This document shows positions 35,985-45,783 of a stretch of 64,000 nucleotides of DNA, in pieces. Each line of letters begins with the position of its first letter. Within the stretch, counting starts at the first letter, position 1. The stretch covers positions 9,207 to 73,206 of the forward strand of contig JBPOGC010000001.1 in assembly GCA_051251795.1 (NCBI GenBank). Direction: 5' to 3'. The DNA is from Luteolibacter sp. (GTDB taxonomy: Bacteria > Verrucomicrobiota > Verrucomicrobiia > Verrucomicrobiales > Akkermansiaceae). Made by a program: the position numbers and the translations under genes. Below the pieces are notes generated by a model. It worked only from the letters and a program-made list of their open reading frames with translations. It ran no database searches and was not told the DNA's origin.

Positions 35985-36335
35985 TCAGATCAACGGTGGT
36001 TTGTCCAGTGCGAAGACAGGGCTATCCGGGATCAACGAATCATAGCGGGAGATTTCTACCCGCCGGGTAACGTATGCAACGGACGAAAACGCGAATGGCG
36101 CACCCTGATCCATGTTCTGGAGGTGGCAGCACTCGTGATGATGAGTGGAACCGCTGTCATGGGTTTGCCCCTCATCATGATGGGAATCGTCCGAAGGATC
36201 GTGCGAATGACTCGATTCAGTGCTATGCTGAACAGCGCATTCGTCATTGTCGCTGTGACCATTCTTGTGACCCATAGCGACAAGAATCCCTGCGAGGACG
36301 CAGAAAGTCAGTAGCAGCTTGGTCAGATGGATCAC
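35985..36335 (-). CDS. Small exported His/Cys-rich protein heading RND operon 3
   Basis: GTG start, signal peptide, HHHECCH and C-terminal DKPPLI. Confidence 0.7.
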   Translation of the reverse strand: MIHLTKLLLTFCVLAGILVAMGHKNGHSDNDECAVQHSTESSHSHDPSDDSHHDEGQTHDSGSTHHHECCHLQNMDQGAPFAFSSVAYVTRRVEISRYDSLIPDSPVFALDKPPLI

Positions 36336-36511
36336 GCGGAACAGATGGCCTAAAACCATCCGACCCGCAACTAGGTTTTTCAGAAAAATGGGAATTTCAA
36401 CTCCGTGCAGATGCTTGCCGTTGACTGAATGATGACTTCTTTTCCACAATCATACTGACACGCAACCTCTCCATTCTTCTTTAAATCGACGATTCGTGGC
36501 TCTCGCAAAAA

Positions 36512-37037: not shown

Positions 37038-37152
37038 GAACCAGACAGCGCCGGGGCAACGGAAACGGCTCATGGAGCTTGGATCATTTTTCAGAATCCA
37101 TCCGGTTCAGATCTTGCGATACTTCAGAAATTTCGACCACAAAAACTTATCT

Positions 37153-37641
37153 ATGACCGCCACAATTCATCCACCCTATCATTTGCTCCGGTCGCAGGAA
37201 TCATGCTGGAAATGCGGATCCGATGCGGAAGTCATCGCGTTCACAACAGCGGAGGTTTCCGGCGAGGAAGATGATGACAACGAACTTCCGGTTCATTCAC
37301 CGGTCGTTCTGACAAATATCAGAAATGCCCCCCAACCTTTCCTGGTTGCCGCCACCCGATCCGGCGCAAACTACGAGTGCCGATTCTCAAAAACTGCCGG
37401 GCATGAGTATTTCATGAATCAATGCGGATGCGGCGCAGTTCTGGGAGATCACTTTCTTCACAACGAACCCGGACATGCGTTCTTTCCAATGAACGATGAA
37501 GAGGCCTCTTCCGTTCAGGTTCAGGAGATCGATTGTCCCGACCCACTGGAAATCGAATGCAGCTTTACGGGCTGGTCTTCGCTTTGTCTCGTGAAGAGCG
37601 GAACCATGGTCGATGGAAAGATTGACGTGACCCCGGTATAA
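37153..37641 (+). CDS. Hypothetical Cys/His (Zn-binding-like) protein
   Basis: CWKCG and FSKTAGHEYFMNQCGCGAVLGDHFLHNEPGHAFFP. Confidence 0.7.
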   Translation: MTATIHPPYHLLRSQESCWKCGSDAEVIAFTTAEVSGEEDDDNELPVHSPVVLTNIRNAPQPFLVAATRSGANYECRFSKTAGHEYFMNQCGCGAVLGDHFLHNEPGHAFFPMNDEEASSVQVQEIDCPDPLEIECSFTGWSSLCLVKSGTMVDGKIDVTPV

Positions 37642-38196: not shown

Positions 38197-38493
38197 TCAA
38201 ACTTCAGGTTCACCACTTTCGTTGCTTGAGAGTGGCTCCTGTTGGCCTTGGAATTCTTTCAATCCCTCAAAGAATTCCTTGGTGAAATGTCCTGCGGTAT
38301 TAGCATTGATTCGTGCCATCTCGTCTATACTGAGAAGATTAAGACGCCCATTGGGTAGAAGCCTGATCCTCAAAAGGCTATCCATCGGGTAATCGATAGG
38401 AAACTGCATTTTACCTTCGTCTAGTTGTTGGCGCAAAAGATTAAAGTTTCGTTCGAAATCGCCCCGCGTGAGAGGTGTGTTCATCTTTTCCAT
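38197..38493 (-). CDS. avs1c: Avs1c-like small protein, second copy
   Basis: TPLTRGDFERNFNLL...LPNGRLNLLSIDEMARINAN, clearly paralogous to the adjacent gene. Confidence 0.75.
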   Translation of the reverse strand: MEKMNTPLTRGDFERNFNLLRQQLDEGKMQFPIDYPMDSLLRIRLLPNGRLNLLSIDEMARINANTAGHFTKEFFEGLKEFQGQQEPLSSNESGEPEV

Positions 38494-38557
38494 AATCAGC
38501 CAAAAATTGTGTTTGTTCTCGAAAGCCTGTGCAATTCCCCGATTGAGGTATCTTCAT

Positions 38558-38869
38558 TCAATTATCATGAGTTGGATCGTCGGATTCTGCGGGCGAAAGA
38601 ACATCTGACTCCCCTCTCTTGTTTTCGATTTTCTTCTGAAAGGAACATTCGCTCATCTGATTCATCATATTGGCTTGTAAGCGAGCACTCTCGTCAACGC
38701 TTAGGAAATCCATCCGGCCGTTTGGAAGAAATCGCACTCTTGCAATGCCTGAAACTGAGTGAGTTAGTCCTCTTTGAACGAAAAATTGACCATCTTCGAT
38801 TTTTCGATGGAGCAAATTGAAGTTCCGCTCAAATTCCGCCCGGGTGCGGGGAGTGTCCATGGGATTCAT
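38558..38869 (-). CDS. avs1c: AVAST type I accessory protein Avs1c
   Basis: TPRTRAEFERNFNLL...LPNGRMDFLSVDESARLQAN; third gene after MBL and protease-STAND. Confidence 0.85.
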   Translation of the reverse strand: MNPMDTPRTRAEFERNFNLLHRKIEDGQFFVQRGLTHSVSGIARVRFLPNGRMDFLSVDESARLQANMMNQMSECSFQKKIENKRGESDVLSPAESDDPTHDN

Positions 38870-38872
38870 AAT

Positions 38873-41800
38873 CTATACCAGTCGGTTATTACGTTCATCG
38901 ACAACGGTAAGGAGTTCGTTGTCGAGCCATATGATCCATACCAGTTTGAGTCCGGCAGGAATCTTCAAGGCTTCTCGGGGAACCGATAGCGAGCAGCCGC
39001 CTCTTTCGGGTTGCCCAAAACCCCGAACGTTGTTCCGGCGACTATAACGCCAATTTTTCCTCGTAAAGTCATCGTCCTTCGCTCCAATGAGGTTCTGAAT
39101 ATAGGGCAGCGGAGCCGCCGGGGTAAACGAGCCAAAGAAAACAATTTCAGGCTTCAATCGGCTGCAAATTTCGAAAGGTGTTCTGACCGTCGAAGCATTT
39201 GGTAATTCAGATGATCGGAAGGACTGATCAAGCTGTGGACCGAAGGAACCTCGCTGCACTGAGTTAGGCTGAAGCAGACATAATACTTCGACATGGAGTG
39301 TTCCGTCCTCATTTGGTTTAACGGCCATGTCGTGATAGTTGAGCAACACTGTCGCATTCGAACCCAATACGGCGGAGTAGTCATCCGATTTGATCGCTGC
39401 AATTAACTGATCGGTGACGGGGTTGCTCACCCCTTGCACCATACATTCTGGTTGGCTTGGATTGTAAGGTCTGAGTGCGGCCTCTAGCTCTCTTGCGCCG
39501 CCCTTTGAAACATATTTCCACAAAGCTAAATTGAGGCTGTAGCGTAGCTTGGATTCCCAACGACTCAACGGACGGTTTTGGCCTTCCCTAAAACTAGTTG
39601 CCACTGCGGTCTCAAGCATCAACCCATCTGTAACGCCTAATGGAGAACAAATTTGCTCTAACTCCTTCTGCCAAGCGGCGACAGACTCAGAATCGAGAAG
39701 CTTCACGATCCGCCTCCATTCTGGAGCTAAGGAACTAGCCCAGATTGGGAGCTCTGGACTTTCGCCCGCTCCGCGTTTTCCTGAAAAAGAAGCCGCTATC
39801 AAGTTCATTGCGACTTTTGCAGACGACATACCCGCTTTCTCTGCACGCTCTGCCAAACGCATTAGAACAGCCATACGCGAGACATGTCGCAGCTGTTCTG
39901 TGACCGTGGTCAGATCCAGGACATCTGTAATTCTTTCCCACGTCGTTGTGGGGTCGCGAGCCGAAATACCGTCAAACACGCCACATAGGACATCTGATCC
40001 ATATCCATCATCCATCGAAAAGGCTGTGCTCAAAGCCTCGGAAAACAGATCGGGAACCTGTTCTACAAGCCAAAGTAACATTGCTGCTGCTCGCTCTCGT
40101 CTAAGCCATTGAGGATGATCGCACAGCCAAACTATAAATCGGTAAAACTCTAGATTTGGACAGAGTTCAGTATCATCATCTAGAAACTCGAACTTTTGAA
40201 TTTCCGGTGTGGCATCTCCAACAACAAGACGAACATGGCTGATCACTGTATCAAGTAGTTTCTGCCCCTCCACCTCGTCGAGTAGAGGGCCGACTTTGTC
40301 AATTAGATGCCGGGCAGGTATCCATTGGTGCACATTGCGTTCAGCCTCAATTAAAGGTGCGTAGGAGCGGATTACGTCAGCAGCGCTCGATTCATCCTTC
40401 GCAATAATCTCTTCAGCCCGACGCGCACTATCAGAGAGATTACCCCAGATGGGCCAACCTCCTTCTTGCGCAGTCTTCAACACCTTTGCCGCCTGCGACT
40501 TTGCCTCCCTACTATTTCCTAGAGTCAGTTGTAATTCGGCCTCTTTAAGTATTTGATCGCCATCTCGTAGAGCTTTCTTTCGTCCAAAAAAACCAGATTC
40601 AGAGAGGTCGTCATCAAAATCCTCATCCTCGCCAACTTCAGCTGCTGGCTTGATCGGCTCGACTGGTTTAATCGGTGTCAAACCAACGAGCACCGCTGCA
40701 AATGCGACATGAAGCTCTTGCTTCAACTCATGTCGAAAGGCTGATGCAAAAATAGATTTTTCGTCGCTGGGCGTTTCCGAATTTACTACAATTCCGAGTC
40801 GTTGAACCAATTCGGGCAATGCTCCTGCCTCGTTTGCTATAGTCGCAAAGGCAGCGGCGTAATTGGATACATAGCGACTATCTCCACAATGGAATATCTC
40901 AAGCAACGCCCAGCGAAAAGTCCACGAAACAGCTTCTGAGTGTCTTACCAATTCTAAGATCGCGTCCTGATCATCAATAGCTCCGCCAGGAAACCTGCTT
41001 CCCCGCAATGGCCCAACCTTATCAATTGGCCCAAAATTCGCCTCTGCCCACAGCTCCTCGGTTGATCCGCAACATTGTCTTTGAAAATATCCTATTGCGG
41101 CACCGTATCTCCCATTGCGAGCAATCTGACCAATCAGCATCGACTTTTCTGCCCGTATGTAACGTTGAAAAGTCATTTCGCCCGAAGCTCTCTCAAGATA
41201 GCCCGCAATCTGTGGTATGCGGTTAGCAAGATCTACATCGACCGCCAAACTGCTTAGAACCTCAGTCATGATACCAAGCTGATCCTCCTTATACCAAGTC
41301 GGCCCCATAGAAACAGACAGTAATGTTTGGTATAATCTCTCTGCCTCCTCTTTGGCTCCAAGGTCTGCAAAGATGGGAATCATCTGTAAAATCTCGGGCA
41401 CAAGTTCGTGACGGTTCTCCACACCCCTAAGCAAGTGATCCCTTAGAACTTGCAGTAATCTCAGTAGTTTGGCCGTCAAGACATCTTCAGTCTTCTCCCG
41501 CGTCAATTGTTTTAGAATTTGGAAAGCCGACGCCCGAAAACCCTCGGAATACATACCCCATTGACCTCCAGCACTCGACACGAGGGAATCCAACCATCGG
41601 GGCAGTTCTTCTGGAAAACAGTCACTTATTAACTCGGCCAACTGACGATATACCGTTGGTAGCGCATTTTCTGGTATAGCGTAGCTGTCCTTCCAAGCTG
41701 CACGTTGTTCCAAAGTAAAGCGAAGAGGTGCTAGTACTTGTGCCTCCAGTTGCTTTAAGCAACTAGCCCTCTGCATTTCGTCAGAATCGGTTTTGGCTCT

Positions 41801-44614
41801 TCGAGTTCTGCCGTCACAGCAGTATAGTGATACAATCAGATGCCGTATTGATTCAAACCAATCGGCGCCTTCGACATTGCCACTGGAAGGCTCCTCAAAT
41901 GCAGGATCGAGGAAAGCCATGACTCGCCAGTCGCAGAGACATTCCTGAAGGTCTTTATGGTTAACGTCGACCCCGTTTTCTGCTTTGAGCTGCACCTGCC
42001 TCGGCGTTTGTTTGCTGCCTTTCGCTGCAAATTGCTTTACGATGTTTGCGTCGGCACCAAAGCGAATCAAAGTATCAGAGACTCCGGCTGCCAGAGGAGG
42101 ATTGATTTCAGCGGTCGGCAGTAATTCGGCAAGATCAGAAAAAAATTGCGACAGCGATTTTCTGTCTTTGCAAAGGTGGTAATTTTCCACTGTAGCCTCA
42201 AATTTTAGTAGACCAAAGCATAGTGAGGGCAACAAGCGCGAGAGATCAGCTTCATCTCCTAAACTTTCTTTGATTCGAGAAAGATTGGCGTATTCATCAC
42301 GAAAACTGAGAAAATATGTAGGCGACTCTGCGACAAGTGGTTGAATGCATTCGTCTAGCTTTTCTGGAGCGTCCGCGAAAAATTCATTACAAGCGTCTCT
42401 GGCCATTTCAATGATTCGGTAGAACTGCTCCATACCGCTACCATTGATCGCTAATCGAATCTGAAAGTGAGTCTGTATGTGAAAAGAGCAGAGAGTTAAG
42501 AAATCACGCAGCTCGATTGGAGGCTGGTACCTCTCGATGATGCCTAGTTCGATTCTCTCAAGCAGTGCCAACGCTTCACCATCATATCCATGCCGATGTA
42601 GTAGGAAGGCAATCTCAAGGGCATCGACTGGTTCGACAATGAGGGTTTTGAGTCGCACTACATGCTGAAGTGCCTCGGTAGGACGATCTAGGACGATGAG
42701 AGCTTCCGCGATCAAGCGCGCTGACTGGGCAAACAGCGTATTATAGCGGAAACTGATTCGTTGAGCTAAAAGCGTGACGCGGAAAAAGTCGTCGGGCGAA
42801 GCCTCTAAAGCGGCCCGTTTAACCGCCGCATCAACATCCGCAATAAGGGCGTCGGGTTCTACTCCCAACGTCACCGCAGTGTCGAACCAAGTTTGATTGC
42901 ACTCTGTAAACACGTCGGTATCGCCTGCAAGCAGGAGATGGAAGATTCGATTTAGAGCGCAATATCGGATCAAAGGCTCATCGCAGCAGAACTTTGCGAG
43001 CCGCGCATTAATCGTGCCTTCGATTGCCTCCGTTTTTTCGACGATAAAAGCTGCTAACGATGCGTGGTAGATAGTTGTGTTTTCGTTGTCGGCTAACAAA
43101 TGCCCGACCCTGCTTATGACAGAAATGAACTGTGCTTGTTCTCGCTCATTGAGAACCTTGGCGAAATCCGTCCGTGATACCCCCCACCGGAATCGAGCCA
43201 TTAGTGCAAGCAAGTTTACGGCGTCGCCATCCACCAACAACTTGGCCCAAATGCCTTGGTAGTATTCCTCGATTGGACCAGTCAAAACTGGAAAATCTTC
43301 TAGTTCGTCATCTTCTGCCCGAAGGTTGGCAAACTCGATTAGGTATCTCAGATATAGCGGATGACCGTTGGCCTTCTCGCATATCAGATCAATCAGTGCT
43401 GGTGATCTTCGCTCAGGATTCAACACCTCTAAACAATATTGGTAACAAGCTGAATCGGGTATGGGTGGCAGCTCAAAAACATCGTCCTGGTTGACCTTTC
43501 CTGACAGCGGAGCTTCAGTATTTGCAAAATTCGGAGCAGTCAGCACCACGCTCACATGAGATGGTAATTTTGCTGGGAGGAGGCCGAGGAGTTCATTCAG
43601 TACCCCCCCTTCAGGAACCTCATTCAATCCATCGAGGAAAATCACTCCCTGCCGACTACTCTTCCTGCAGTAATTCGAAAGTGCATCAAGATACTCTGCA
43701 GTTTTCTTAATCTGTTCGTGGTAGGGTCTCTCTTCCTTCTGAGGCGGCTGACCTGTGATCAGTCCGGAAACCTTTGTCGTAAACCATTCCAAAAAAACTT
43801 GTGGTTGAGCCCGATAGTCAGCACCTAGAGAGCTCTCTGGATCGGAGAGACAATAAGCGCCCAAACATACAAACTTTTTGTCATCAGCCTGAAAATTTCG
43901 GCAGAAAGTCGACTTACCATAACCGTGAGCACCTTCCAAAAAAAGATAGCTACCTGACCGCTCCTCAAGCGCTATAGCAAAACTTTCGGGAAAGTCTCCC
44001 CGGCCAGCAAGTGCCGGTGATGTGAGGTTAGATTTGTTGCTGGGTAGAACCACCCCATTGTGGGTAAAAAAATCTTCCAAGGTCCTCAAACTCAGGGCAG
44101 CAACGGTGCCATCAAATTCTTTCGAGATGATGCCAACAACCGCGCCGTCGCAAATCATTGCCCCGCCCGAAATGCCTTCGTAAGCAAGTAACTTCGTCGA
44201 CGGGTCGATGGAAAGATCAATGTCTATCTTTAGTTTCGGAGTATCCAGAGTTTGTGCAACCGTTCCCACTAATCGATGTCCTATAGTAGATTTGCTGCCT
44301 GGGTAGCCGAACGTCTGCCAGGCCTCACCCTGCCGGGGCATGTCCAGTCTCACAGGCAGTGGCTCGGCAGTAGATACTGCGTCCATGGACAAGATGCATG
44401 CGTCCCAGTCTTCCGAGTGGGCAACAATTTTACCAGCTACAGCAACGTCACCAGAGTTTGGAAAAAATAACTCAATTGGTTTCCCTTCATCTATGCTGGG
44501 AATCAAGCAGTGCCGTGCAGTGATAATTCGATCCTTTCCAATCAACCAGCCGGTTCCAGACTCGGTGTCACAATTTACGCGGCATGTTGCCTCCTTGATG
44601 AGATGTTCAATCAT
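38873..44614 (-). CDS. avs1b: AVAST type I protease-STAND NTPase Avs1b
   Basis: 1913 aa; trypsin-like N-terminus (TARHC, D, GISGG), Walker A GAHGYGKS, Walker B IFLDGLNE and a long helical sensor region. Confidence 0.9.
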   Translation of the reverse strand: MIEHLIKEATCRVNCDTESGTGWLIGKDRIITARHCLIPSIDEGKPIELFFPNSGDVAVAGKIVAHSEDWDACILSMDAVSTAEPLPVRLDMPRQGEAWQTFGYPGSKSTIGHRLVGTVAQTLDTPKLKIDIDLSIDPSTKLLAYEGISGGAMICDGAVVGIISKEFDGTVAALSLRTLEDFFTHNGVVLPSNKSNLTSPALAGRGDFPESFAIALEERSGSYLFLEGAHGYGKSTFCRNFQADDKKFVCLGAYCLSDPESSLGADYRAQPQVFLEWFTTKVSGLITGQPPQKEERPYHEQIKKTAEYLDALSNYCRKSSRQGVIFLDGLNEVPEGGVLNELLGLLPAKLPSHVSVVLTAPNFANTEAPLSGKVNQDDVFELPPIPDSACYQYCLEVLNPERRSPALIDLICEKANGHPLYLRYLIEFANLRAEDDELEDFPVLTGPIEEYYQGIWAKLLVDGDAVNLLALMARFRWGVSRTDFAKVLNEREQAQFISVISRVGHLLADNENTTIYHASLAAFIVEKTEAIEGTINARLAKFCCDEPLIRYCALNRIFHLLLAGDTDVFTECNQTWFDTAVTLGVEPDALIADVDAAVKRAALEASPDDFFRVTLLAQRISFRYNTLFAQSARLIAEALIVLDRPTEALQHVVRLKTLIVEPVDALEIAFLLHRHGYDGEALALLERIELGIIERYQPPIELRDFLTLCSFHIQTHFQIRLAINGSGMEQFYRIIEMARDACNEFFADAPEKLDECIQPLVAESPTYFLSFRDEYANLSRIKESLGDEADLSRLLPSLCFGLLKFEATVENYHLCKDRKSLSQFFSDLAELLPTAEINPPLAAGVSDTLIRFGADANIVKQFAAKGSKQTPRQVQLKAENGVDVNHKDLQECLCDWRVMAFLDPAFEEPSSGNVEGADWFESIRHLIVSLYCCDGRTRRAKTDSDEMQRASCLKQLEAQVLAPLRFTLEQRAAWKDSYAIPENALPTVYRQLAELISDCFPEELPRWLDSLVSSAGGQWGMYSEGFRASAFQILKQLTREKTEDVLTAKLLRLLQVLRDHLLRGVENRHELVPEILQMIPIFADLGAKEEAERLYQTLLSVSMGPTWYKEDQLGIMTEVLSSLAVDVDLANRIPQIAGYLERASGEMTFQRYIRAEKSMLIGQIARNGRYGAAIGYFQRQCCGSTEELWAEANFGPIDKVGPLRGSRFPGGAIDDQDAILELVRHSEAVSWTFRWALLEIFHCGDSRYVSNYAAAFATIANEAGALPELVQRLGIVVNSETPSDEKSIFASAFRHELKQELHVAFAAVLVGLTPIKPVEPIKPAAEVGEDEDFDDDLSESGFFGRKKALRDGDQILKEAELQLTLGNSREAKSQAAKVLKTAQEGGWPIWGNLSDSARRAEEIIAKDESSAADVIRSYAPLIEAERNVHQWIPARHLIDKVGPLLDEVEGQKLLDTVISHVRLVVGDATPEIQKFEFLDDDTELCPNLEFYRFIVWLCDHPQWLRRERAAAMLLWLVEQVPDLFSEALSTAFSMDDGYGSDVLCGVFDGISARDPTTTWERITDVLDLTTVTEQLRHVSRMAVLMRLAERAEKAGMSSAKVAMNLIAASFSGKRGAGESPELPIWASSLAPEWRRIVKLLDSESVAAWQKELEQICSPLGVTDGLMLETAVATSFREGQNRPLSRWESKLRYSLNLALWKYVSKGGARELEAALRPYNPSQPECMVQGVSNPVTDQLIAAIKSDDYSAVLGSNATVLLNYHDMAVKPNEDGTLHVEVLCLLQPNSVQRGSFGPQLDQSFRSSELPNASTVRTPFEICSRLKPEIVFFGSFTPAAPLPYIQNLIGAKDDDFTRKNWRYSRRNNVRGFGQPERGGCSLSVPREALKIPAGLKLVWIIWLDNELLTVVDERNNRLV

Positions 44615-45783
44615 ATTGGGGTCGATTTGTTAATTGCGATCCATCCGGTTTCGCCTTCGCTAACGACAAACTCAGCGCCAGCCGTACTCTGATACGATTT
44701 TAGCCTCTGTGACGCTGGCGTGGAATAGTTGAAATGTAGAGTCCTACAGAAATTAGCAGGTCTGTCCACGATTGCCTTAAGCACCGCGAAATCTGGATGG
44801 TTATGACCACTACCATTGGTAGAAATAAAGAAGTCTGGGCTGTCTACTAGGGTAAGTAGCTCTGGACTGGTATTGCGCGAGCTACCATGATGCGCGATCT
44901 TTACAGCGTCGTAAATTGATGGCCCGTTCGTTGCTAGTGCAGCGACAGTATCATTGGCCCAGGAGTCACCGAGAAACAGTAGGCGACGGCCTTCAACCTC
45001 TACGATTAAAGAAATCGAACTACCGTTCGTAACGGAAATGTCGGGGACATGAACTACAGATAAGTCAGCATCCGATGAGGCGAGCAATTGCTCTTTTGGA
45101 GCAACCACTTCGCGTGAGCAGAGAAACTCGAAAGCATCGTCGAGATCATTTAAAGATCCGACCCAACCCATACGCCTTACTTCCGATGTCCACCATTTCA
45201 ATAAGGCATCCAACCGAGTTTCACTAGGGCCGAGAATTGTAATTTTACTTTGGGGAAAGTTAAGTGTAATTATTCCATCCCCACCGATCGGAGTTTCTCC
45301 ATCGTGCATGTTCCATTGGTAGCCTCCCTCACACAATAATTGTGCGAGAGAGCTGCCTTGGCGTGCGCTAATCTCCTGCCCTTGGCTGTTTGCTTTTTTT
45401 GACTGTTGAAAACCTTGCTGGCATATGTCCCGCAAGAGCGCCTTATCATCTTGTCTCATCGCAGCTTTATTCCCATTCAAAGTGGCTAAACTACGGAGAC
45501 TATTGTGCAAAACCTCCCGAACGGGAATGAAGGCTGGCTCTTGGGCAGATCCATTTAGGCTAAAAAAGGATAAAAGTCCGGAAATATGATCCGCATCGAT
45601 GTGTGTCGCGACTACAAGGTCAAGTGCGTAGCCATTGGTCGCGAGATCTTCCAAATCGGATTTGATGTAACGGTGAAAAGTGTCGGCATACCCGCCATCA
45701 ATGAGAAAAGCGAATGGATCGACCGAAGCCTTGACTAGAAAGGCATCACCGTTTCTTGCTGGATAACTTTTAAGCTGAACCAT
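44611..45783 (-). CDS. avs1a: AVAST type I MBL-fold hydrolase Avs1a
   Basis: NGDAFLV, LIDGG, THIDADHISG and KIAHHGS; stop overlaps the avs1b start. Confidence 0.9.
   Translation of the reverse strand: MVQLKSYPARNGDAFLVKASVDPFAFLIDGGYADTFHRYIKSDLEDLATNGYALDLVVATHIDADHISGLLSFFSLNGSAQEPAFIPVREVLHNSLRSLATLNGNKAAMRQDDKALLRDICQQGFQQSKKANSQGQEISARQGSSLAQLLCEGGYQWNMHDGETPIGGDGIITLNFPQSKITILGPSETRLDALLKWWTSEVRRMGWVGSLNDLDDAFEFLCSREVVAPKEQLLASSDADLSVVHVPDISVTNGSSISLIVEVEGRRLLFLGDSWANDTVAALATNGPSIYDAVKIAHHGSSRNTSPELLTLVDSPDFFISTNGSGHNHPDFAVLKAIVDRPANFCRTLHFNYSTPASQRLKSYQSTAGAEFVVSEGETGWIAINKSTPI

What the first reader, a model, noticed from the sequence alone, without database searches (positions are those of the whole stretch)
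38197..45783. AVAST type I locus with two diverged avs1c genes
Seen: MBL hydrolase, protease-STAND and then two tandem roughly 100-aa paralogues sharing TPxTRxxFERNFNLL and LPNGRxxxLSxDExARxxAN but differing in the middle and tail. Known: the described Avs1 has three genes (avs1a, avs1b, avs1c). Inference: the extra copy could be a second protease substrate or effector, a decoy against phage inhibitors, or a heteromer partner, making this a four-gene variant.
Basis: partly seen in the sequence, partly recalled or inferred. Interest (0 to 1): 0.65.

Follow-up and report, generated by a model that had tools for sequence, protein, structure and literature searches.

The report
Avs1 defence locus with two Avs1c
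This is a genuine AVAST type 1 anti-phage operon that carries two diverged, both-conserved copies of its small third gene; such extra copies prove to be recurrent (near-universal in Bacteroidota), so the locus is a real but not unique variant that gives a handle on a gene whose role I found described nowhere.

Summary
On the minus strand lie avs1a (44611-45783), avs1b (38873-44614) and two Avs1c genes (38558-38869 and 38197-38493). All four pass NCBIfam equivalog cut-offs and match the PADLOC Avs1 models. The two Avs1c proteins are 38% identical.

The second copy is not a decaying duplicate. It belongs to a well-supported clade ("beta", 16 sequences). In all 9 loci where I could see context, beta sits second, after a partner copy ("alpha") that forms its own clade. 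Both are under purifying selection (dN/dS about 0.1-0.4).

Closely related Avs1b backbones carry alpha alone, beta alone, or alpha then beta. So avs1c types are shuffled between loci.

Independently, 17 of 18 Bacteroidota Avs1 loci carry 2-3 tandem avs1c genes that group by position. Proteobacteria and Bacillota loci have one, with a single exception.

Avs1c is a stand-alone three-helix protein with no structural or sequence relative. It always starts within -13 to +25 nt of the avs1b stop in loci with an intact avs1b.

What the extra copy does stays inferred. My best guess is a non-redundant accessory subunit, acting either in a heteromer with alpha or as an alternative isoform.

The parts
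44611..45783 (-). avs1a: MBL-fold pronuclease (390 aa). Metal motif H61-x-D63-x-D65-H66. Gating-loop cut-site residues I138 (context EISARQG) and L233.
   Evidence: PADLOC Avs1a 6.7e-144. NCBIfam NF041809 scores 442.7, cut-off 420. Position 138 is Ile in 133 of 140 family members; position 233 is I, L or V in 124 of 140. These correspond by alignment position and context to I134 and I234 of EpiAvs1a (PMC12799240; no Erwinia sequence was in my alignment). The stop overlaps the avs1b start by 4 nt.
38873..44614 (-). avs1b: trypsin-like protease fused to a STAND NTPase and a long helical sensor (1913 aa). Protease triad H35/D71/S149. Walker A G228-K234. Walker B D328.
   Evidence: PADLOC Avs1b E=0 over 1-1905. 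NCBIfam NF041810 scores 1912.9, cut-off 1500. Pfam Trypsin_2 3.1e-10, plus NACHT/AAA_16. The catalytic residues are invariant in the 20-sequence alignment A2.
38558..38869 (-). avs1c-1 ('alpha' type, 103 aa, or 100 aa if translation starts at M4). It begins 3 nt after the avs1b stop and is in the same frame.
   Evidence: PADLOC Avs1c 1.7e-29. NCBIfam NF041811 scores 93, cut-off 70. It belongs to the 14-member 'c1 partner' clade, SH-aLRT 97. The AF2 model has three helices, pLDDT 79. dN/dS is 0.16-0.38. Junction sequence.
38494..38557 (-). 64-nt spacer between the two avs1c genes. It has no terminator-like hairpin and no strong Shine-Dalgarno sequence. Related loci have spacers of about 46-96 nt.
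   Evidence: Sequence. The alignment with L078, L081 and L160 shows only patchy conservation. The terminator scan found nothing here. Gene spacing.
38197..38493 (-). avs1c-2 ('beta' type, 98 aa). It has the same fold, but helix 2 is replaced by a Pro-rich loop (QFPIDYPMDS), and the distal part of helix 3 has its own signature.
   Evidence: PADLOC Avs1c 6.8e-23. NCBIfam scores 84.8, cut-off 70. It belongs to the 16-member 'c2 core' clade, SH-aLRT 98. AF2 pLDDT is 80.5, with H10-26, a short H38-41 and H58-83. dN/dS is 0.08-0.23. Type consensus sequences.

Best explanation
The locus is a complete, probably active AVAST type 1 (Avs1) abortive-infection system acquired by horizontal transfer on a mobile island.

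Core mechanism, inferred from the characterised Erwinia system:
- Avs1b recognises a phage protein (the large terminase in characterised Avs1) and oligomerises.
- Its N-terminal trypsin-like protease then cuts the gating loops of the Avs1a pronuclease after conserved Ile/Leu residues.
- This unleashes DNA degradation.

Avs1c (the name occurs in none of the searchable papers, though the two Gao et al. papers that defined Avs1 were not held) is a stand-alone protein of about 85-100 aa. It has three helices plus a hairpin. Its gene is always placed for translational coupling to the end of avs1b. I therefore read it as a stoichiometric accessory subunit of the Avs1b/Avs1a machine.

This locus carries two non-redundant Avs1c isoforms, alpha then beta.
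- They share the invariant N-terminal helix and the LPNGR hairpin. I infer this is the docking face.
- They differ in helix 2 and in the distal part of helix 3. I infer this is the variable face.

Both genes are maintained by purifying selection and are inherited as a pair.

My odds on what the pair does:
- The two isoforms work together in one complex, as a heteromer or at two non-equivalent sites: about 0.35.
- They are alternative isoforms, each sufficient alone, kept together for breadth or robustness: about 0.30.

Shown here: gene identities, paralogue clades, gene order, selection, distribution.
Inferred: everything about binding and role.
For: Identity and intact catalytic motifs.

Published mechanism for Avs1a and Avs1b:
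- PMC12799240: protease cleavage of EpiAvs1a next to I134; the I134K/I234K double mutant abolishes defence.
- PMC13581612 cites Avs1-3 as terminase sensors.

Horizontal acquisition:
- None of 400 other genomes of the same phylum has Avs1c.
- GC is 0.47-0.50 in the locus against 0.55-0.58 in the flanks.

Both copies functional:
- dN/dS is 0.08-0.38 with saturated dS across four loci.
- The beta clade has 16 rows at SH-aLRT 98 and the alpha-partner clade 14 rows at 97.
- Beta is always second, after alpha, in 9 of 9 loci with visible context: the window, L078, L081, L160, the P0078 contig and L162-L165.

Tight coupling: avs1c starts -13 to +25 nt from the avs1b stop in 122 of the 127 loci scored; the other five have a broken avs1b or a misassigned reference ORF.

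Stand-alone family: 387 clusters at 50% identity in 1.84 billion representatives; among the 150 listed, all are 73-215 aa and none is a fusion.

Parallel arrays: in Bacteroidota, 17 of 18 loci have 2-3 copies, and in most loci the copies group into clades by position. This argues that extra Avs1c paralogues are functional parts of the system.
Against: - No experiment or expression data.
- No multimer model could be made, so binding of Avs1c to Avs1b or Avs1a is only inferred from gene linkage.
- Alpha-only and beta-only loci exist on Avs1b backbones 83-85% identical to each other. So neither type strictly needs the other, which weakens an obligate heteromer.
- The c1-c2 spacer (64 nt, no obvious ribosome-binding site) leaves the translation level of c2 unknown.
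- Terminase sensing is extrapolated from Avs1b relatives that I estimate at about 33% identity. That figure comes from a Pectobacterium Avs1b locus, not from the characterised Erwinia protein itself.
Confidence: 0.75

Rival explanations
1. Alternative-isoform (allotype) model. Alpha and beta are interchangeable versions of the same subunit. Carrying both gives robustness against phage proteins that bind or inhibit one type, or it widens the range of triggers.
For: - Alpha-only, beta-only and alpha+beta loci all occur in one Avs1b clade.
- P0129 and P0134 Avs1b are 83-85% identical to L003 Avs1b, yet their Avs1c is only 57-58% identical. For comparison, L005 and L003 are 75% identical in Avs1b and 81% in Avs1c. 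So avs1c types are swapped between backbones.
- Two-copy loci are not monophyletic on the Avs1b tree.
- Divergence is concentrated in one face of the protein.
Against: - After pairing, both copies form their own clades, distinct from single-copy alpha and beta (97 and 98 support). This suggests co-adaptation.
- The order is fixed as alpha then beta (9 of 9).
- In most Bacteroidota loci the paralogues group by position, which looks like fixed subunits rather than alternatives.
- No Avs1c-targeting phage inhibitor is known.
Confidence: 0.3
2. Second substrate or effector model. Avs1c proteins are cleaved by the activated Avs1b protease, and the two copies are two substrates or pro-effectors.
For: - Avs1b is a specific endopeptidase that activates a partner by cleavage (PMC12799240).
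- Avs1c has a disordered tail, often acidic, that could be removed.
Against: - The Avs1a cut-site context ([E/P]-I-[S/G]-A-[R/K]-Q-G, Ile in 133 of 140) has no counterpart in either Avs1c or in the Avs1c family consensus.
- Avs1c has no enzyme-like or membrane-active features, no Pfam, PHROG or PDB relative, and no fold match.
- The acidic tail is absent in Bacteroidota copies.
Confidence: 0.1
3. Redundant recent tandem duplicate or pseudogene. c2 is a neutral copy on its way to loss.
For: Tandem position. Most Avs1 loci outside Bacteroidota have one copy (83 of 104 loci with enough downstream sequence).
Against: - The copies are only 38% identical.
- The reading frame is intact and scores above the equivalog cut-off.
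- dN/dS is 0.08-0.23.
- Sixteen orthologues form a supported clade, always paired with alpha.
- Single-copy relatives show no decayed remnants.
Confidence: 0.03

Closest known systems
AVAST type 1 (Avs1) of Erwinia piriflorinigrans CFBP 5888 (EpiAvs; Gao et al. 2020/2022; PMC12799240)
   Same: - Same three protein families in the same order: MBL pronuclease, then protease-STAND, then small Avs1c.
- Overlapping or tightly adjacent genes.
- Conserved protease triad, Walker motifs and gating-loop cut-site residues.
   Different: - Two Avs1c genes instead of one.
- I estimate Avs1b at about 33% identity to enterobacterial Avs1b, from a Pectobacterium locus. The Erwinia sequence itself was not compared.
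- The host is a member of a phylum in which Avs1c was otherwise not found (0 of 400 genomes).
Environmental Verrucomicrobiota/Planctomycetota-associated Avs1 clade (for example L003 Verrucomicrobiales MAG, L005 Planctomycetota MAG, L078, L081)
   Same: - Avs1b is 60-74% identical.
- The avs1b stop and avs1c start are in the same frame.
- L078, L081, L160 and L162-L165 have the identical alpha-then-beta layout.
   Different: Most members (L003, L005, L079, L080, L082-L088) have alpha only. L158 and L159 have a beta-like gene only.
Bacteroidota Avs1 loci (for example Sphingobacterium L040, Flavobacterium L048, Wenyingzhuangia L066)
   Same: Multiple tandem Avs1c paralogues (2-3), 25-58% identical to each other, conserved by position across genera.
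   Different: - They arose by independent duplications; their copies form separate clades from the window's pair.
- The genes overlap or abut rather than being separated by a spacer of about 60 nt.
- Their tails are short and not acidic.
- Avs1b is only about 25% identical.
Protease-pronuclease pairs in Hachiman (HamMAB), Lamassu and DRT
   Same: The same MBL pronuclease plus fused trypsin-like activator module, with cleavage after Ile in gating loops.
   Different: As described in PMC12799240, those systems have no Avs1c-like third gene. The 150 listed Avs1c hits are all small stand-alone proteins, and every Avs1c whose context I examined lies in an Avs1 locus (loci).

Membership tests
AVAST type 1 (Avs1) | Avs1a: MBL-fold hydrolase encoded immediately upstream of the STAND gene | tested here: met
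   NCBIfam NF041809 equivalog 442.7 (cut-off 420), PADLOC Avs1a 6.7e-144, Pfam Lactamase_B. There is a 4-nt overlap with avs1b.
AVAST type 1 (Avs1) | Avs1b: N-terminal trypsin-like protease fused to a STAND NTPase and a long C-terminal sensor | tested here: met
   NF041810 scores 1912.9 (cut-off 1500). The PADLOC Avs1b match is full length. Pfam finds Trypsin_2 plus NACHT/AAA_16. H35/D71/S149 and Walker A/B are invariant in alignment A2.
AVAST type 1 (Avs1) | Avs1c: small protein encoded directly downstream of avs1b | tested here: met
   Both small ORFs exceed the NF041811 cut-off (93 and 84.8 against 70) and match PADLOC Avs1c. The first starts 3 nt after the avs1b stop.
AVAST type 1 (Avs1) | Gated pronuclease: conserved Ile cut sites in two insertion loops of Avs1a | tested here: met
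   I138 lies in EISARQG (Ile in 133 of 140 family members). The second site is L233, where the family has I 77, L 37, V 10. These correspond by alignment position and context to I134 and I234 of EpiAvs1a (PMC12799240; no Erwinia sequence was in my alignment).
AVAST type 1 (Avs1) | Three-gene architecture (one copy each of a, b, c) as originally described | tested here: not met
   There are four genes, with two Avs1c paralogues. The same deviation is seen in 20 of 104 surveyed loci.
AVAST type 1 (Avs1) | Anti-phage protection and activation by the phage large terminase | not testable with these tools
   Needs plaque assays and terminase co-expression. It is inferred only from homology to characterised Avs1.

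The most novel reading that the evidence does not exclude
Avs1c is an exchangeable specificity or anti-counter-defence cassette.
- Distinct Avs1c 'allotypes' (alpha, beta, and the position-specific Bacteroidota types) are shuffled between otherwise near-identical Avs1b backbones and stacked in arrays.
- The number and type of Avs1c genes then sets which phages, or which phage inhibitors, the system can cope with.
- That would make Avs1 a modular multi-subunit sensor rather than a single-receptor system.
Probability: 0.2. Interest if true: 0.7.

Novelty: new variant of a known kind. Interest (0 to 1): 0.45.

Why it matters
Avs1 is a model bacterial NLR-like system. Recent papers explain its sensor and its protease-pronuclease effector, but the accessible ones assign no role to the third gene. 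The name "Avs1c" occurs in none of the searchable papers.

This work shows three things about avs1c:
- It is universally coupled to avs1b.
- It exists as distinct types that are swapped between loci.
- It is kept as ordered arrays of 2-3 paralogues in whole lineages.

Together these argue that it is a real, dosage- and type-sensitive component. They also supply natural experiments (alpha-only, beta-only and alpha+beta loci on similar backbones) for working out what it does. For annotation, Avs1 should be treated as "a, b, and one or more c".

Tried and rejected
- Near-identical DNA in E. coli genomes and in plasmids: none.
- Plasmid tblastn with Avs1c: 7 records, all single copy, all annotated avs1c.
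- Fold search of the Avs1c model against PDB: no match with E<1.
- Profile against PDB sequences: 0 hits.
- Solved structures: none for Avs1b, and only a weak competence-protein (MBL-type) hit for Avs1a.
- Pfam and PHROGs for Avs1c: nothing significant.
- Avs1a-like cut-site motif inside Avs1c: none.
- Promoter and terminator scan: no more than chance, and nothing between c1 and c2.
- Conserved fifth gene downstream of c2: none. The ORF shared by L081, L160 and L163 is probably the antisense shadow of a convergent gene.
- Remnants of a lost c2 in single-copy relatives: none.
- Search with the sensor half of Avs1b for relatives with other effectors, to see whether Avs1c follows the sensor or the protease: only trypsin-fused Avs1b came back, so this is uninformative.
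- Sampling 400 genomes of the host phylum for Avs1c: only the window's own genome.
- Gao et al. 2020 and 2022 are not held in the paper library. What I say about them rests on citing papers and my own knowledge.
- A multimer or fusion structure model was considered and dropped. The tool returns no interface information, and c1 and c2 are in different frames.

Full report
**1. What is in the window**

Four co-directional ORFs lie on the minus strand:
- avs1a, 44611-45783, 390 aa
- avs1b, 38873-44614, 1913 aa
- c1, 38558-38869, 103 aa
- c2, 38197-38493, 98 aa

avs1a and avs1b overlap by 4 nt. c1 starts 3 nt after the avs1b stop codon and is in the same frame. c2 follows after a 64-nt spacer.

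PADLOC gives Avs1a 6.7e-144, Avs1b E=0 over its full length, and Avs1c 1.7e-29 and 6.8e-23. NCBIfam equivalogs NF041809, NF041810 and NF041811 are all passed: 442.7/420, 1912.9/1500, 93/70 and 84.8/70. Pfam sees Lactamase_B in avs1a, and Trypsin_2 plus NACHT/AAA_16 in avs1b.

The two small proteins are 38% identical, E 5e-24.

**2. Is the system intact?**

In a 20-sequence Avs1b alignment, these residues are invariant: the protease triad H35/D71/S149 (GISGG), Walker A G228-K234 and Walker B D328.

In 140 Avs1a sequences taken from related loci, position 138 is Ile in 133, in the context [E/P]-I-[S/G]-A-[R/K]-Q-G. Position 233 is I, L or V in 124; the window has L. By alignment position and sequence context I take these to be the two gating-loop cut sites that were mapped experimentally in EpiAvs1a as I134 and I234 (PMC12799240); no Erwinia sequence was in my alignment. 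That paper shows Avs1b cleaves Avs1a during infection and that cut-site mutants lose defence. PMC13581612 cites Avs1-3 as terminase sensors.

So the core mechanism here can be inferred by homology. It was not tested.

**3. Origin**

The host genome has only these two Avs1c genes. None of 400 other genomes sampled from the same phylum has any. GC is 0.47-0.50 in the locus against 0.55-0.58 in the neighbouring metal-efflux genes.

The closest Avs1b proteins (60-74% identity, one at 97%) come from metagenomes and from Verrucomicrobiota and Planctomycetota MAGs.

**4. Survey of avs1c copy number**

I anchored on Avs1b, not on Avs1c. This fetched 75 loci from one-genome-per-species references and 80 metagenome loci. 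I counted Avs1c HMM hits in six-frame ORFs.

Among loci with at least 1 kb downstream of avs1b: 83 have one copy, 11 have two, 9 have three and 1 has none.

By phylum in the reference genomes:

| Phylum | Loci by copy number |
|---|---|
| Bacteroidota | 17 of 18 with 2-3 copies |
| Pseudomonadota | 34 single, 1 double |
| Bacillota | 4 single |
| Verrucomicrobiota / Planctomycetota | 2 single |

In most Bacteroidota loci the copies fall into position-specific clades across genera, and they are 25-58% identical within a locus. So these are old, retained paralogues. Multi-copy avs1c is thus common in one large branch of the family.

**5. The window's own pair**

Among 351 Avs1c homologues, the listed 120 split into about 99 closer to c1 and about 22 closer to c2.

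An IQ-TREE analysis of the window's clade gives:
- a 'c2 core' clade of 16 rows, SH-aLRT 98
- a 'c1 partner' clade of 14 rows, SH-aLRT 97
- c2 core nested with 6 further Avs1c rows, SH-aLRT 98. The two of these whose loci were examined are single-copy.

Wherever context is visible, c2-core genes lie second, after a c1-partner gene, directly behind avs1b. This holds in 9 of 9 cases:
- the window, L078 and L081
- L160, where the database record had not called c1
- the P0078 contig
- L162-L165

Close relatives carry alpha only (L003, L005, L079, L080, L082-L088). I found no decayed c2 downstream of them. L158 and L159 carry a beta-like gene only.

Two-copy loci are not monophyletic on the Avs1b tree, whether built from the full length, the N-terminal part or the C-terminal part. 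The Avs1b proteins of L158 and L159 are 83-85% identical to that of L003, but their Avs1c is only 57-58% identical. For comparison, L005 against L003 is 75% in Avs1b and 81% in Avs1c.

The C-terminal 350 residues of Avs1b co-segregate somewhat with the two-copy state: the identity excess is 0.07-0.10 there against 0.00-0.06 elsewhere.

Together this points to exchange of the 3' end of the operon, including avs1c types, between related loci. A single vertical duplication does not fit. Repeated loss cannot be fully excluded with a protein of about 100 columns.

**6. Selection and structure**

Pairwise dN/dS among four alpha+beta loci is 0.16-0.38 for c1 and 0.08-0.23 for c2, with saturated dS. 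So c2 is at least as constrained as c1.

AF2 models built with family alignments give the same fold for both proteins: helix 10-26, a second element, a short LPNGR hairpin, a long helix from about residue 58 or 60, and a disordered tail. pLDDT is 79 and 80.5, and above 90 in the core.

The types differ in two places:
- Element 2. Alpha has a helix (FFVQxGLSRSIAGI). Beta has a Pro-rich loop with a 2-residue deletion (QFPxDYPMDS).
- The distal part of helix 3.

The N-terminal helix, the hairpin and the start of helix 3 are near-invariant across the whole family: R10, E14 and R52 are invariant, and P7, E12, F13, P49, N50, E60, R63, A66 and N67 are conserved in at least 90% of sequences.

No fold match, no PDB sequence match, and no significant Pfam or PHROG match.

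A profile search of 1.84 billion representatives finds 387 clusters. The 150 listed are all small stand-alone proteins of 73-215 aa. None is a fusion to Avs1b or to another Avs1c.

In 122 of the 127 loci scored, avs1c starts -13 to +25 nt from the avs1b stop; the other five have a broken avs1b or a misassigned reference ORF. This argues for coupled, stoichiometric synthesis.

The tails are acidic in single-copy loci and in this pair, but not in the Bacteroidota arrays.

**7. Interpretation**

Firm:
- This is a genuine Avs1 locus.
- Its second avs1c is a conserved, selected, non-redundant paralogue.
- The alpha-then-beta pair is a recurrent lineage.
- Extra avs1c copies arose independently and are fixed in Bacteroidota.

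Inferred:
- Avs1c is an accessory subunit that docks through its invariant face.
- The variable face distinguishes the isoforms.

Whether alpha and beta co-assemble or are alternatives is open:
- The existence of alpha-only and beta-only loci favours sufficiency of each type.
- The fixed order, the co-divergence of paired copies, and the position-specific Bacteroidota paralogues favour joint action.
- A substrate role lacks support, because Avs1c has no cut-site motif.

**8. Novelty**

'Avs1c' occurs in none of the searchable papers. The two recent Avs1 studies mention only that two more genes accompany the NLR-like gene, or they ignore the third gene. PGAP would already label both genes avs1c, so the raw fact is visible in annotations. 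I could not find the pattern described anywhere: the types, the swapping, and the ordered arrays.

I rate it a new variant of a known kind, of moderate interest.

Noticed in passing
L040-L077 (Bacteroidota loci, e.g. L040:9988-10709, L066:15156-15874): Nearly all Bacteroidota Avs1 loci carry 2-3 overlapping or abutting avs1c genes that mostly form position-specific clades. This is a parallel to the window's pair, and a much commoner one.
   Followed up: partly
L158:2501-2830 and L159:2501-2833, compared with L003:15758-16093: Avs1b proteins that are 83-85% identical carry Avs1c of different types (57-58% identical). This indicates swapping of the avs1c gene between related loci.
   Followed up: partly
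window 38870-38875 and 27 other loci: In 28 of 127 loci, avs1c lies in the same frame as avs1b and is separated from it by a single stop codon plus 3-21 nt. Whether stop-codon read-through ever makes an Avs1b-Avs1c fusion was not examined. No such fusion appeared among the 150 listed database hits.
   Followed up: no
L160:2150-2449: The public record behind L160 (GCA_047514455.1 contig) does not call the first avs1c gene, although the frame is intact and scores 7.5e-42. Annotation-based counts of avs1c will therefore be underestimates.
   Followed up: yes
L061 (contig CAYTKM010000010.1): This MAG is labelled 'uncultured Gammaproteobacteria', yet it carries a Bacteroidota-type Avs1 locus (25% identity class) with two avs1c genes. 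Either the locus was transferred between phyla or the contig was mis-binned.
   Followed up: no
L034, L060, L004, L140: In these loci the longest avs1b frame ends 0.4-2.7 kb before avs1c, and the tblastn matches span 7.2-7.5 kb in L034 and L060. These avs1b genes look interrupted by an insertion or a frameshift.
   Followed up: no
window avs1b residues about 1250-1340 (nt about 40600-40870): This is an acidic, low-complexity linker (…PIKPVEPIKPAAEVGEDEDFDDDLSE…). In the corresponding alignment block, identity between otherwise similar Avs1b proteins falls to 0.35-0.49. It is a hypervariable hinge inside the sensor.
   Followed up: no
window 37072-37641 (+) and 35985-36449 (-): The neighbours downstream of c2 have no Pfam assignment (a 189-aa ORF with Cys/His pairs) or only a sub-threshold DUF2946 hit. 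They are not conserved next to other alpha+beta loci.
   Followed up: partly
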